NCBI RefSeq assembly: GCF_013315695.1
Contig: NZ_CP054353.1
Source of the DNA: Escherichia coli
Lineage (GTDB): Bacteria; Pseudomonadota; Gammaproteobacteria; Enterobacterales; Enterobacteriaceae
DNA: 64,000 bases
Reading direction: 5' to 3' (one strand)
Shown here piece after piece: positions 51,001-57,000 of this stretch (position 1 is its first letter; each line of letters starts with the position of its first letter). Made by a program: the position numbers.

Positions 51001-54000
51001 AAACCATTTATATTCCAGCTATTGCCGATATGGCGCGCGATCTCAACGTCCGTGAAGGGGCGGTGCAGAGCGTAATGGGCGCTTATCTGCTGACTTACGG
51101 TGTCTCACAGCTGTTTTATGGCCCGATTTCCGACCGTGTGGGTCGCCGACCGGTGATCCTCGTCGGAATGTCCATTTTTATGCTGGCAACGCTGGTCGCG
51201 GTCACGACCTCCAGTTTGACAGTATTGATTGCCGCCAGCGCGATGCAGGGGATGGGCACCGGCGTTGGCGGCGTAATGGCGCGTACTTTGCCGCGTGATT
51301 TATATGAACGGACACAGTTGCGCCACGCTAACAGCCTGTTAAACATGGGGATTCTTGTCAGTCCGTTGCTCGCACCGCTAATCGGCGGTCTGCTGGATAC
51401 GATGTGGAACTGGCGCGCCTGTTATCTCTTTTTGTTGGTACTTTGTGCCGGTGTGACCTTCAGTATGGCCCGCTGGATGCCGGAAACGCGTCCGGTCGAC
51501 GCACCGCGCACGCGCCTGCTTACCAGTTATAAAACGCTTTTCGGTAACAGCGGTTTTAACTGTTATTTGCTGATGCTGATTGGCGGTCTGGCCGGGATTG
51601 CCGCCTTTGAAGCCTGCTCCGGCGTGCTGATGGGCGCGGTGTTAGGGCTGAGCAGTATGACGGTCAGTATTTTGTTTATTCTGCCGATTCCGGCAGCGTT
51701 TTTTGGCGCATGGTTTGCCGGACGTCCCAATAAACGCTTCTCCACGTTAATGTGGCAGTCGGTTATCTGCTGCCTGCTGGCTGGCTTGCTAATGTGGATC
51801 CCCGACTGGTTTGGCGTGATGAATGTCTGGACGCTGCTCGTTCCCGCCGCGCTGTTCTTTTTCGGTGCCGGGATGCTGTTTCCGCTGGCGACCAGCGGCG
51901 CGATGGAGCCGTTCCCTTTCCTGGCGGGCACGGCTGGCGCGCTGGTCGGCGGTCTACAAAACATTGGTTCCGGCGTGCTGGCGTCGCTCTCTGCGATGTT
52001 GCCGCAAACCGGTCAGGGCAGCCTGGGGTTATTGATGACCTTAATGGGATTGTTGATCGTGCTGTGCTGGCTACCGCTGGCGACGCGGATGTCGCATCAG
52101 GGGCAGCCCGTTTAAGCTCACGTCACCGCAGCATCGTCATCAGCTCCATGGGAGAACGATGCTGCTTTATCAGATCACGCATCACCCGCATATGCGGCGC
52201 GGAGTAAGAATAAAACGCCTGATAGCCCGCACAAAGCACGTTGTCTGGCGTCTCCTCCCGAGCGTGCGGGCACAGCCGATGCCAGTCGCACGCCTGGCAG
52301 CCACGGCGCGGTTGCGGGTTTTCGCTGCCACACCATTTTTGTAGGGTGGCGTCAAAAAGCTCAATCGAAATACGACTGATATCTGCCCGTACCCAACACT
52401 CGAACAGGGCAATTAAAAATTTCCCCCACAGCTCTGCTGTCACCGAAGCGGCCGTCAGATCGCCCCGGTCATCAAATTCAAGATGGGGAATAAGCTGTAC
52501 GGAGCGGATACCCCGTTGTTTGAAATTGTGATAAAAATCGGCAGGTTGCAGAGCATCCTTGTACTCTACAACCAGTTTATGCCTGTCCTCTTCAGCATCA
52601 ATGACCTGACTTCCTGTCATGCGACTCTCTCAATAAATACGATAAGTTGATGTATATGCGTTACAGCAAACAGTATTGCGAGAGATAACACCGCGAGGGA
52701 GATCAAAAATTTGTCACGGACTACGTGAAATTGGGAAAAATCGCTATTCGTGACATCCATTAAATTGCGATTACGGGTGTAGTGCCAGAGGATCAGCGCC
52801 ACAATGGCGAGAATGCCAATCGAAATCCAGAATAACATGCCCGCCTGGTGCCAGTTGTGTTTGATAGCCAACGCCATCAACGCGCCGTAGCCCAGCATGG
52901 TACGAAACCACGCCAGTGATGTACGCTCCGGCTGCAGCCCTGGGTCGGCAATGCGTCTGGCTTTGCGGCTATCCGGCATACAACACCAGTCCCATAACGA
53001 TCACCGCTACGACCATCAATATTAAGCTGATGATTAATAAGCTGTTGGTGTAGGGCAGGTCCTCTTTCAGACGCATCGCTTTTTCATTGCGTAACCAGCG
53101 CAGGTAGCCATACATCGCTAACCCGCCGGAAAACAGACACAACAACAACGCCAGCAGTTCGCGAATGACGGGCGTGGCGAAATCTGGCGCAAGTTGATCA
53201 AGCCCAACCCCCGCCGCCAGAAAGCCTAGTGCGGTACGGATCCACGCCAGAAAAGTACGCTCATTAGCCAGCGAGAAGCGATAATCAGGTGCTTCTCCGA
53301 GGCGGGAAATTTTCATTGTTGCTCCTTTGCAATTTCACTAACGCTCTACCTTTAGCGGTTTTTTTAAGAATTTCGTCCACCCGTTTCCTGATATGCTTTT
53401 GCCATCCGCTACAAGGAGGTCAGATGGGTATCATAGCGCAAAATAAAATCAGTTCATTGGGCATGCTGTTCGGTGCCATCGCTTTAATAATGGGGATTAT
53501 CCATTTTTCATTCGGCCCTTTTTCCGCACCACCGCCAACGCTTGAAAGCATCGTGGCGGACAAAACGGCTGAAATTAAAAGAGGTCTTCTCGCCGGAATA
53601 AAAGGCGAAAAAATTACCACCGTGGAGAAAAAAGAGGACGTAGATGTCGATAAAATCCTCGATCAAAGCGGTATCGCACTGGCCATTGCTGCGCTACTTT
53701 GCGCATTTATTGGCGGTATGCGTAAGGAAAATCGCTGGGGCATTCACGGCGCGCTGGTTTTTGGCGGCGGGACGCTGGCTTTCCATACCTTGCTTTTTGG
53801 TATCGGCATCGTGTGCAGCATTTTGCTGATATTCCTTATCTTTTCCTTCCTGACCGGCGGTTCACTGGTTTAAGCAGCCTGAATAATGCCCGCCGGGTGT
53901 TCATCAGCGGGCATTATCGTCAGAACTTCTGTTTTTTCTCTTCCACCTTCACCCCTTGTGTCGGTAGGCCGGTGTCATAGTCGCGTACCACTGGCGAATA

Positions 54001-57000
54001 GCCATCTTGTGGGCGTGGACGAAACGCCCCCATCCAGCGCGGTCGTGCATCTTTACGCCACGGACGCAGACTCCACTGGTAACTGCGGAACGGATCGCGA
54101 ATTTTATCCATGTAATCCAATAAGGCGTCATGCATTTTGCGGCGAACGTCGGCAAAACGGATATCATCTATCAGGTTATGCATTTCATTTGAATCATTAC
54201 GGCGATCGTAAAGTTCATCACTGGTGAAGAGGTTGAGCACCAGTTTAAAGTCATCCGTCACCCAGCAACGCACCGGAATAAAACCGCCAAAGCTGTCATG
54301 CTCAATCTCGTAGCGGTTAAATTCCACCATTACACCGCGTGGCTCTTTCACGGCAAGGATATTTTCCCCCGGCAGAATCTCTGGTTTTTCAATATCTGCC
54401 AGCGCCATCATTGTCGGCAGTAAATCGATATGACTGACTGGCGTATCGACCTGTCGCCGCTCCCCTTGCGGCGAACGGATGATCAGCGGAATGCGGGTGA
54501 TGTCGTCATACATCGCCGCTCCTTTACTGATCAGCTTATGTGCGCCCATCATTTCGCCGTGATCGGAGGTATAAATGACCCACGTATTTTCACGTTGCTC
54601 TGACGTTAAGGCATTGATGACCCGTCCGATTTGGTCATCAACAAAGTCATTGCAGGCAAAATAGAGCGGATGGTGATAAAGCCCGTCATCACCGACTGGC
54701 GATGGCATCGCCTGCGCCCATAAGCGGTGATGTTCCGGTTTGTTCGCCAGGTCATCCTGTGATTTCTCGCCAAGTTCGTAGTAAAAATCAGCGTATTTCT
54801 CTAAATACTCCACCGGACAGGTGAACGGGTGATGCGGCTCATCATACGAAACCACCATCAGGAAGGGTTCCTCGGCGCGCGCGGGCTGTTGCAGAAAATC
54901 TACCGCCCGATTGCTGATGCGGTGCGCCCAGGTGAAGGTTTCGTCGATATGGTTCGCCTGTAAATCCTCAACGCTGTTTAGGCCATTGCGCCACAGGCTG
55001 ATCTCTTTTTCCGTCAGTTCGCTAAGGTAGTTCGCCCCATCGAACCAGTAATCAGCGTCCCACTCCGGCGGACACTCGCCAGTGCCGAAATAGTCATGAC
55101 CGTCGAGATGCCATTTGCCGATGTAACAGGTGTGATAGCCCGCATCCTTAAAGTAGCGTCCCATAGTGGAGATGTTTTTGCCCGGCGCGACGTTGTTGGT
55201 CCACGGGCCGGACTGGTTAGCGTAGATACCGGTAAACAGCCCGGCGCGCGCTGGTGTACAAACCGGTGAACAGGTGTAGGCGGAATTAAAGCGAATACTT
55301 TCCACTATCAATATTTTGCGTATTCAGCGGCTTACCGCTATAGCAACCGACCATATTGGTGGCCTGGGTATCGGTCATGATGAACAGAAAATTGGGGCGT
55401 TTCATAGGCTATCCTTCGCGTCGGGAGTAAAGGTTACGGCTGGGTCGTGACGATGCCGCCAGCTGTCAAAAATCAGGTAGACAATCACTACGGCAGCGAT
55501 GAAATAACTGATCATCGCTAACCAGCGCGTACCGTAGCCGCCGAATTCAGCCAGCCCGGCATAGACGCCAATCATAGCGAACAGGATGCCAATTGACGCG
55601 ATCTTGACGTTTTTCCACGGTTTCATGTCCACCGCAAACGCATCTTTGAAGGTGAACGGCGTGGCGCGCGGTTTGATAAAACCGATCACCAGCATCACGA
55701 CCACGTTGATGCAGAACGTACAGGCCAGCACATAGAGGAAATGGAAGTCGAACTTCACCAGATAGTTGATGGTGATGTAGCTGATTATGCCAATCCCCAT
55801 CGCCACTTTTGCCGCCAGCGCTGGAATGCGCGGGAAGAAAAAGCCCATAATGATGATGGTAACCAGCGGCACGTTGTAAATGCCGTTGAGCTGTTTCATC
55901 CAGCTATACAGCCCCTGCGGCGCGTTGGCGATCCACGGCGCTACCAGCACCGAAACGATGGCGATAAAGAAACCAAATTTGCGCCCGACGGTGACCAGCT
56001 GCTGCGGCTCGGCATTCTGGTTAATGATGCGACGGTAAATACCCATACTGAATAACGTACTGGCGCTATTCAGAAAGCCGTTGAAGGTACTGATCACCGC
56101 ACCAAATAACACCGCGCCGAAGAAACCCACCAGTGGCACTGGCAGAACGTTATTGACCAGCGTCGGGTAGGCCATGTCGGCTTTCGGTAGATCCTGATAC
56201 AGATGAAACGCAATCAACCCTGGCAGCACCAGTACCAGCGGGTCGAGCATTTTCAGCACCGCCGTTAACAGCGCCCCCTTTTGCCCTTCCGCCAGGCTTT
56301 TTGACGCCAGCGTGCGTTGCACGATGCCCTGATTTGTACACCAGTAAAAGGTGTTCACCAGAATCAAACCGGTAAATGCCGCGCCAATCGGCAAGGGATC
56401 GGTCGGGCCACCGACTGAGTTTAATTTCTCGGCGTGAACGGTGGTGAGTTGCTCAATGCCCTGCATAAAGCTGCCCTTGCCCATCGCGATCAGGCCAAAT
56501 ATCGGCACCATCAACCCGCCAATAACCAGCCCAATACCGTTGATGGAGTCCGCCACTGCCATTGCGCGCAGTCCGCCGATCACCGCATACAAAATTCCCG
56601 CCAGACCAAGCAAAATTACCAATAGCCAGATAGCCGCACCGTGAGAAATCTGTAGCGATTCCCCGACGTGAAACAGGCTGTTGAGCGCCAACGCGCCGGA
56701 GTAGAGAACAATCGGCAGAAAGCAGACGCCGGTGGCAATGAGGAAGCAGAAGTCGATGATAATACGCGTCGTTTTATCATAACGTTCCTCCAGAAAATCG
56801 GGGATGGTGGCAATGCCGCGCTTCAGATAGCGCGGTAAAAAGATTAGCGCGAGGAAGATCAGCGTCACTGCAGAGGTGACTTCCCAGCCCATCACCGACA
56901 TGCCGCTTTTGTAGGCCTGCCCGGAAAGGCCGACCAGTTGTTCCGTGGAAAGGTTGGTTAGCATTAACGAAGCGGCAATAACCGGCGCTTTTAGTGAACG

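What the first reader, a model, noticed from the sequence alone, without database searches (positions are those of the whole stretch)
53920..55405. yidJ sulfatase appears frameshifted near its 5' end
The RBS-supported start (ATG 55405, overlapping the yidK stop as ATGA) opens a reading frame encoding MKRPNFLFIMTDTQATNMVGCYSGKPLNTQNIDS... that terminates after 39 codons at 55286-55288. The sulfatase body, including the C-x-P-x-R active-site motif, continues in a different frame to 53920. The N-terminal metal-binding Asp residues and the catalytic Cys are therefore in different frames. The ORF geometry is consistent with a small deletion near 55290-55310 (about 8 bp if the K-12 protein length of 497 aa I recall is right). 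This is either a real pseudogene or a sequencing error.
Basis: partly seen in the sequence, partly recalled or inferred. Interest (0 to 1): 0.4.

Follow-up and report, generated by a model that had tools for sequence, protein, structure and literature searches.

The report
Real 8-bp frameshift pseudogene of yidJ
The putative sulfatase gene yidJ in this E. coli window is broken by a genuine, inherited 8-base deletion near its start, an ordinary recent gene loss confined to one clone and not a sequencing error.

Summary
yidJ (minus strand) starts at ATG 55405, which overlaps the yidK stop as ATGA and follows an AAGGA Shine-Dalgarno. It reads 39 codons and stops at TAA 55288-55286. The rest of the sulfatase, including C-T-P-A-R at 55260-55246, continues in the +1 frame to 53920.

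Alignment to K-12 and to near-identical strains shows exactly 8 bp (CTGGCGGC) missing between 55304 and 55303.

The lesion is real. The frameshift-specific 39-aa peptide is encoded on at least 24 other contigs from different ENA and Logan samples. All ten contigs fetched carry the identical junction on the same haplotype (99.93-100% identity), with small SNP differences among them.

The lesion is also recent and rare. No complete RefSeq E. coli genome that matched (0 of 5,068) carries the junction. The nearest intact relative, MSB1_4I, differs from 63 kb of the window by only 6 SNPs, this deletion and one IS1 insertion.

The metal-binding N-terminus (Asp12) and the catalytic Cys52 are now in different reading frames. 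The leftover 461-codon ORF has no ribosome-binding site and lacks Pfam Sulfatase positions 1-35.

Verdict: an ordinary clone-specific null allele, of low interest.

The parts
53920..55405 (-). yidJ pseudogene as a whole. It is the orthologue of K-12 b3678, a putative cytoplasmic Cys-type S1 sulfatase, and is frameshifted here.
   Evidence: Synteny and alignment to K-12 and to close relatives. Pfam PF00884 and PF16347.
55412..55416 (-). Shine-Dalgarno AAGGA, 6 nt upstream of the yidJ ATG.
   Evidence: Read directly from the sequence.
55286..55405 (-). 5' fragment ORF of 39 codons plus TAA. Residues 1-34 are native YidJ, including Asp12 at 55372-55370. Residues 35-39 (GKYSL) are out-of-frame.
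   Evidence: Pfam Sulfatase profile positions 1-31. The exact peptide is found on at least 24 other contigs.
55303..55304 (.). Deletion junction. 8 bp are missing (CTGGCGGC on the gene strand, GCCGCCAG on the + strand). Placement is unique and there is no flanking microhomology.
   Evidence: Alignment A1. Base-by-base comparison with MSB1_4I.
53920..55305 (-). Residual body ORF in the +1 frame: 461 codons from a GTG that the deletion itself creates (55305-55303), plus the stop codon. A TTG alternative start lies at 55311. No Shine-Dalgarno precedes either start.
   Evidence: Gene callers report a 461-aa product on other Δ8 contigs. Pfam Sulfatase profile 36-301 only.
55246..55260 (-). Formylglycine motif C-T-P-A-R (Cys52..Arg56 in intact-protein numbering).
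   Evidence: Aligned to the S/C-x-P-x-R motif of the solved sulfatases 9ihk and 7oz8.
55402..57117 (-). yidK, the upstream solute:sodium symporter gene. It is intact (571 aa) and its stop overlaps the yidJ start by 4 nt.

Best explanation
A genuine, heritable 8-bp deletion removes codons Leu35-Ala36 and two bases of Ala37 of yidJ. Ribosomes that start at the normal, yidK-coupled ATG read 34 native residues plus GKYSL and then terminate at TAA 55288-55286. The remaining 460 native codons lie in the +1 frame with no ribosome-binding site. They lack the first beta-strand and metal-ligand segment (Asp12) of the sulfatase fold. The gene is therefore a null allele. The deletion arose very recently in one IS-active E. 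coli clone related to MSB1_4I and has been passed on to sublineages seen in many samples. Shown here: the deletion, the frames, the domain split, the clonal spread and the derived state. Inferred: loss of protein and of activity, and absence of polar effects, because yidJ is the last gene of the yidK-yidJ unit and yidI is on the other strand.
For: The 8-bp gap is located exactly, and the ORF geometry. Pfam puts profile positions 1-31 in the peptide and 36-301 in the body. Asp12 and the C-x-P-x-R motif align to conserved positions of solved S1 sulfatases. The frameshift-specific 39-aa peptide is on at least 24 contigs in 26 collection blocks, from accessions of several submissions (SRR28299565, ERR4229482, ERR12454647, SRR8428005, SRR32733216, SRR15832847, ERZ24594165, ERZ27305040 and others). 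All 10 fetched loci have the identical junction and are 99.93-100% identical to the window. L004 and L006 share a yidK SNP that the window lacks, and L003 has a private SNP, so the allele has been inherited through diverging sublineages. The state is derived and recent. All listed orthologues are 8 bp longer. No matching complete genome (0 of 5,068) extends across the junction. MSB1_4I differs from window 1-63119 by only 6 SNPs, the 8-bp deletion and an IS1 insertion. yidJ has no other substitution relative to five intact genomes, because the 99.5% identity equals the 8 gap columns alone.
Against: No reads of the source genome could be inspected. No expression or activity data exist. An N-terminally truncated product from the deletion-created GTG, or a rare +1 slip at CTT-TAA, cannot be formally excluded. 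Sample metadata could not be retrieved, so independence of the samples rests on accession numbers and contig-naming styles only.
Confidence: 0.9

Rival explanations
1. A sequencing or assembly error in the source assembly. On this view the true genome has intact yidJ.
For: The nearest complete genomes are intact and otherwise nearly identical. No complete RefSeq genome has the junction.
Against: The same junction is present in at least 24 contigs from different runs and from at least three contig-naming styles: NODE_-type, k141_-type and Logan. Those contigs differ among themselves by SNPs. The site is not a homopolymer or a simple repeat, and an exact 8-bp drop is not a typical platform error.
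Confidence: 0.03
2. The gene still makes a working enzyme by re-initiating at the deletion-created GTG (55305) or at TTG (55311). This would give a YidJ that lacks residues 1-37.
For: A 461-codon ORF remains open and gene callers call it. The GTG lies only 17 nt upstream of the 0-frame stop, so termination followed by re-initiation is conceivable (inference).
Against: No Shine-Dalgarno-like sequence precedes GTG or TTG, and no promoter-like site lies nearby. The product would lack Pfam Sulfatase positions 1-35, including the conserved Asp12. In S1 sulfatases the N-terminal Asp is a ligand of the catalytic metal (established knowledge, for example Asp13 and Asp14 of Pseudomonas arylsulfatase).
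Confidence: 0.03
3. A +1 ribosomal slip at CTT-TAA-T (55291-55285) restores a near-full-length protein, as happens at prfB CUU-UGA. Residues 35-42 (LAAESIRF) would be replaced by GKYSL.
For: The 0-frame ends in CUU UAA and the body is in the +1 frame, so a Leu-tRNA slip from CUU to UUU would join the two frames.
Against: There is no Shine-Dalgarno-like stimulator at the required 3-nt spacing: the bases upstream are AAGTAT followed by TCG. The stop context UAA-U is a strong terminator, unlike UGA-C. The arrangement is a by-product of reading native CGC-TTT-AAT out of frame. It is unique to this clone and not conserved. The product would still carry an altered, shortened segment between the metal site and the catalytic Cys.
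Confidence: 0.02
4. The loss was positively selected rather than neutral. For example, it might avoid a cost of the yidKJ pathway in this clone's niche.
For: The allele has spread to many samples. Other lineages carry different early yidJ frameshifts, such as ...NTQKY* on 23 contigs and ...NTAKY*.
Against: Spread is equally explained by hitch-hiking in a successful clone. yidJ is retained in 5,131 of 5,426 complete genomes. The neighbouring yidL promoter is H-NS-repressed in K-12 (PMC3950696), which suggests little expression and hence little selection either way.
Confidence: 0.1

Closest known systems
E. coli K-12 YidJ (b3678, NP_418134.1), putative sulfatase/phosphatase, 497 aa
   Same: It is an orthologue in the same yidL / yidK-yidJ / yidI-yidH-yidG-yidF-emrD context. 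DNA identity is about 98% across the locus. It has the same ATGA overlap with yidK and the same C-T-P-A-R motif.
   Different: The window copy lacks 8 bp (CTGGCGGC, codons 35-37) and is split into a 39-codon ORF and a 461-codon ORF.
Intact yidJ allele WP_000828518.1 of E. coli MSB1_4I, 2014C-3075, SCU-301 and MS 21-1
   Same: Its DNA is identical to the window's yidJ apart from the 8 bp (99.5% identity, which equals the 8 gap columns). MSB1_4I is collinear with 63 kb of the window and differs by only 6 SNPs.
   Different: It has an intact single frame of 497 aa.
Formylglycine-dependent S1 sulfatases with solved structures (for example 9ihk S1_30A, 7oz8, and the 6pt4 exo-2S-iota-carrageenan sulfatase)
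   Same: Intact YidJ aligns over residues 2-444 at E-values of 1e-44 to 1e-42. The N-terminal xxTD motif and the S/C-x-P-x-R motif are conserved.
   Different: YidJ has no signal peptide: its domain starts at residue 4. Its substrate is unknown. In the window the two halves of the active site are in different frames.
prfB programmed +1 frameshift site (CUU UGA C)
   Same: Both have a CUU codon followed by a stop, with the downstream ORF in the +1 frame.
   Different: The window site has no Shine-Dalgarno stimulator at 3-nt spacing, has a strong UAA-U stop, and is not conserved. It is an accidental product of the deletion.

Membership tests
S1 formylglycine-dependent sulfatase (Pfam PF00884) / YidJ orthologue | Sulfatase domain match above Pfam's gathering score | tested here: met
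   The body ORF scores 207.1 bits and the intact orthologue 242.5 bits, against a cut-off of 25.
S1 formylglycine-dependent sulfatase (Pfam PF00884) / YidJ orthologue | C/S-x-P-x-R formylglycine motif | tested here: met
   C-T-P-A-R at 55260-55246. It aligns to the motif of 9ihk and 7oz8.
S1 formylglycine-dependent sulfatase (Pfam PF00884) / YidJ orthologue | N-terminal metal-ligand Asp in the same polypeptide as the catalytic Cys | tested here: not met
   Asp12 (55372-55370) is in the 39-codon ORF and Cys52 is in the +1-frame ORF. Profile positions 1-31 and 36-301 are split between them.
S1 formylglycine-dependent sulfatase (Pfam PF00884) / YidJ orthologue | Synteny with K-12 yidJ between yidK and yidI | tested here: met
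S1 formylglycine-dependent sulfatase (Pfam PF00884) / YidJ orthologue | Sulfate-ester hydrolase activity | not testable with these tools
   No substrate is known even for the intact protein. The literature searches found none.
Genuine frameshift pseudogene | An indel that is not a multiple of 3 relative to intact orthologues, giving a premature stop | tested here: met
   8-bp deletion and a stop after codon 39.
Genuine frameshift pseudogene | Intact state in the nearest relatives, so that the lesion is derived | tested here: met
   No matching complete genome (0 of 5,068) crosses the junction.
Genuine frameshift pseudogene | The same lesion reproduced in independent assemblies | tested here: met
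   At least 24 contigs carry it and 10 were verified at the DNA level. SNP diversity exists among the carriers.
Genuine frameshift pseudogene | Read-level support in the source genome, and absence of the protein | not testable with these tools
   No reads or expression data were available.
Programmed +1 ribosomal frameshift (prfB type) | Slippery CUU-U followed by a 0-frame stop, with the ORF continuing in the +1 frame | tested here: met
   CTT TAA T at 55291-55285, and the body is in the +1 frame.
Programmed +1 ribosomal frameshift (prfB type) | Shine-Dalgarno-like stimulator 3 nt upstream of CUU, and a weak stop context | tested here: not met
   The upstream bases are AAGTAT then TCG. The nearest GGA lies 9 nt upstream of CTT (GGAAAG ends 6 nt upstream). 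The stop context is UAA-U.
Programmed +1 ribosomal frameshift (prfB type) | Two-frame arrangement conserved among orthologues | tested here: not met
   Every orthologue examined has a single frame.

The most novel reading that the evidence does not exclude
The accidental CUU-UAA-U context that the deletion created might support low-level +1 slippage, or the deletion-created GTG might support re-initiation. Either way the Δ8 clone would keep a trickle of altered YidJ and would not be a true null. That would make it a natural example of a frameshift mutation partly rescued by recoding.
Probability: 0.03. Interest if true: 0.35.

Novelty: already known. Interest (0 to 1): 0.08.

Why it matters
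It matters little biologically. This is a routine, clone-specific loss of a non-essential, uncharacterised and probably poorly expressed gene. Annotation pipelines flag such lesions automatically as 'frameshifted'. There are three practical uses. First, the gene should be annotated as a pseudogene, not as a 461-aa 'sulfatase'. Second, the junction AATATTGATAGTGGAAAGTATTCGC is a specific marker for tracking this clone in isolates and metagenomes. Third, the Δ8 clone and its near-isogenic intact relatives such as MSB1_4I form a natural knock-out pair that could help find the unknown substrate of the yidK-yidJ pathway.

Tried and rejected
1. Slipped-strand or microhomology origin. The placement of the gap is unique and the flanks share 0 bp of homology. 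The local GGCGGCGG repeat has a 3-bp period and cannot explain an 8-bp loss. The mechanism of origin is left unknown.

2. A mutational hotspot at this site. The other 29-41-aa N-terminal YidJ fragments in the same protein cluster are mostly wild-type sequence cut at contig ends. The true lesions among them (NTQKY*, NTAKY*, NIDTWFQPITS) are at other positions.

3. An internal promoter or ribosome-binding site for the residual ORF. None was found. The scan returned a single promoter-like site, inside yidK at 55880-55853, which is fewer than the shuffled expectation.

4. Literature on the substrate or function of yidJ, yidK and yidF. It offers only the label 'putative sulfatase/phosphatase' and an enrichment in gut-associated clade II strains. 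yidL is H-NS-repressed.

5. Lineage identity from strain names. This was uninformative, and no MLST gene lies in the window.

6. Structure prediction and the large homology searches were not run. Pfam and the PDB sequence alignments already answer the structural question.
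Full report
OBSERVATION. All features below are on the minus strand. yidK (57117..55402, 571 aa) ends in CTA TGA, and the yidJ ATG at 55405 overlaps that stop as ATGA. An AAGGA Shine-Dalgarno lies 6 nt upstream, at 55416-55412. From this ATG the frame reads MKRPNFLFIMTDTQATNMVGCYSGKPLNTQNIDSGKYSL and stops at TAA 55288-55286, which is 39 codons. A second ORF runs in the +1 frame from TTG 55311, or from GTG 55305, to the stop at 53922-53920. 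It encodes the rest of the sulfatase, including C-T-P-A-R at 55260-55246.

WHAT THE LESION IS. The region was aligned to K-12 MG1655 yidJ (b3678, 1494 bp, 497 aa) and to strain 2014C-3075. The references read GATAGT-CTGGCGGC-GGAAAG and the window reads GATAGT-GGAAAG. A base-by-base comparison with MSB1_4I places the gap between + strand positions 55303 and 55304. The placement is unique and has no flanking microhomology. The deletion removes codons Leu35 and Ala36 and two bases of Ala37. It also creates the GTG (55305-55303) from which gene callers start a 461-aa product.

REAL OR ERROR? The out-of-frame tail ...SGKYSL* makes the 39-aa peptide a specific probe for this allele. An exact-sequence look-up found it on at least 24 contigs in 26 blocks of ENA metagenome assemblies and Logan assemblies. 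They carry accession numbers from several separate submissions and at least three contig-naming styles. All ten loci fetched contain the identical 25-bp junction and none contains the reference form. They are 99.93-100% identical to the window over 2.3-10.1 kb, so this is one haplotype and one event. The carriers are not identical to each other. L004 (SRR28299565) and L006 (ERR4229482) share a yidK SNP that the window lacks. L003 has a private SNP, and L005 differs at 7 positions. An artefact would not be inherited through diverging sublineages. I conclude the deletion is real, although the reads of the source genome could not be inspected.

HOW OLD AND HOW COMMON. yidJ is present in 5,131 of 5,426 complete RefSeq E. 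coli genomes. Every listed hit is 8 bp longer than the query. The five best differ from the window only by the 8 gap columns, which gives 99.5% identity. I then ran an asymmetric junction query: 100 bp upstream of the junction plus 15 bp beyond it. It stopped at query position 100 in the best hits among 5,068 matching genomes, so no complete genome on any haplotype carries the junction. The nearest intact relative is MSB1_4I, from a rectal swab in Australia. It is collinear with window 1-63119 and differs by 6 SNPs, this deletion and a 768-bp IS1 insertion. The intact state is therefore ancestral. The deletion is very recent, and the dead gene has accumulated no further changes.

CONSEQUENCE (partly inferred). 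Pfam places Sulfatase profile positions 1-301 on the intact protein, positions 1-31 on the 39-aa peptide, and only positions 36-301 on the 461-aa remnant. Intact YidJ aligns to solved S1 sulfatases: 9ihk at E = 2.5e-44, 7oz8 at 8.7e-42 and 6pt4 at 9.4e-42. In the two alignments printed (9ihk, 7oz8), the N-terminal segment PNflfimTD and the S/C-x-P-x-R motif are conserved. From established knowledge of S1 sulfatases, the N-terminal Asp is a ligand of the catalytic metal. For example, Asp13, Asp14, FGly51, Asp317 and Asn318 bind Ca2+ in Pseudomonas arylsulfatase. The offset of the 1hdh match (query 2 to chain 3) makes YidJ Asp12 the likely equivalent, which is inference. The metal site and the formylglycine Cys52 are thus encoded in different frames. 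Neither GTG 55305 nor TTG 55311 is preceded by a Shine-Dalgarno sequence, and no promoter-like site lies nearby. The most likely outcome is a 39-residue peptide and no functional enzyme. yidK upstream is intact. yidJ is the last gene of its unit, because yidI is on the opposite strand, so no polar effect is expected.

RIVALS. A sequencing error is very unlikely, for the reasons above. Re-initiation at the new GTG would give a protein that lacks the first 37 residues, which is unlikely to fold or to bind metal. The 0-frame ends in CUU UAA U with the body in the +1 frame, which formally resembles the prfB site. However, it lacks a Shine-Dalgarno stimulator at 3-nt spacing, it uses a strong stop context, and it is simply native CGC-TTT-AAT read out of frame. 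It is not conserved in any orthologue. Adaptive rather than neutral loss cannot be decided. Other lineages carry different early yidJ frameshifts, and the divergent yidL promoter is H-NS-repressed in K-12 (PMC3950696). Both facts fit weak selection on the locus.

COMPARISON WITH WHAT IS KNOWN. This is the orthologue of K-12 yidJ, a Cys-type, cytoplasmic (no signal peptide), uncharacterised S1 sulfatase. It sits next to a sodium:solute symporter (yidK), an AraC-type regulator (yidL) and a small radical-SAM protein (yidF). No substrate is reported in the searchable literature. As a kind of feature it is a routine frameshift pseudogene. The particular Δ8 allele is absent from complete RefSeq genomes but present in public assemblies.

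CONTEXT. The clone looks IS-active. The window carries an IS1 in eilA that MSB1_4I lacks. It also carries an IS4 in the yidP regulator gene and an IS4-bounded inversion junction to ravA. The close relatives returned 14-18 matching places each for the 24-kb query that contains IS4. The median across genomes was 3 places for that query, and 1 place for IS4 itself. A small deletion that inactivates a dispensable gene fits that background.

VERDICT. The question of pseudogene versus error is settled in favour of a real, recent, clone-specific pseudogene. The finding is ordinary and of low interest.

Noticed in passing
window 25019-25786 (inside eilA, about 23635-26108, + strand): A 768-bp IS1 interrupts eilA, the HilA-family regulator of the ETT2 secretion-system locus. 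It has IS1 terminal repeats and an 8-9-bp target duplication (CAAAAGTT). The insertion is absent from the otherwise near-identical MSB1_4I.
   Followed up: partly
window about 61693-63119 (IS4) and 63120-64000: An IS4 splits the GntR-family regulator gene yidP, as it does in MSB1_4I. Beyond the IS4 end, however, the window continues into the ravA upstream region and 5' end. In MSB1_4I a second, oppositely oriented IS4 sits between kup and ravA about 71.6 kb away. The window is therefore the IS4xIS4 inversion isomer of a segment that, by K-12 gene order, contains dnaA and oriC. Alternatively one of the assemblies is mis-joined across IS4.
   Followed up: partly
IS4 copy, window 61700-63119: IS4 appears to be expanded in this lineage. 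MSB1_4I, OZ547117 and close relatives gave 14-18 matching places for the 24-kb query that contains IS4, against a median of 3. IS4 alone has a median of 1 place per genome that has any, 15-16 places in IAI39 and CE10, and a maximum of 32.
   Followed up: partly
window about 28314-29781: Internal tandem repeats with a period of roughly 290 bp and about 83-87% identity show up as off-diagonal BLAST hits. By collinearity with MSB1_4I they lie inside iatC, a very large inverse autotransporter adhesin gene of 7 kb.
   Followed up: no
protein cluster of N-terminal YidJ fragments (P0002, P0010, P0011, P0013): Other E. coli lineages carry different early yidJ lesions. Examples are ...NTQKY* (one extra A in the CAAAAT run, 23 contigs)...NTAKY* (found in a 5.3-Mb genome)...SLAAG and ...NIDTWFQPITS. 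yidJ has therefore been inactivated several times independently.
   Followed up: partly
L003 position 2062 (equivalent to window 58344): One Δ8-bearing metagenome contig has a private C>T change. It splits the 6-phospho-alpha-glucosidase gene, which is 440 aa elsewhere, into ORFs of 384 and 54 aa. The K-12 counterpart glvG is also annotated as a pseudogene.
   Followed up: no
window about 44500-47600 (between ilvN and uhpA): MSB1_4I annotates three hypothetical proteins here, at record positions 35815-38820. One of the six window-versus-MSB1_4I SNPs (window 45308) falls in the largest of them. I did not examine whether this block is an insertion relative to K-12.
   Followed up: no
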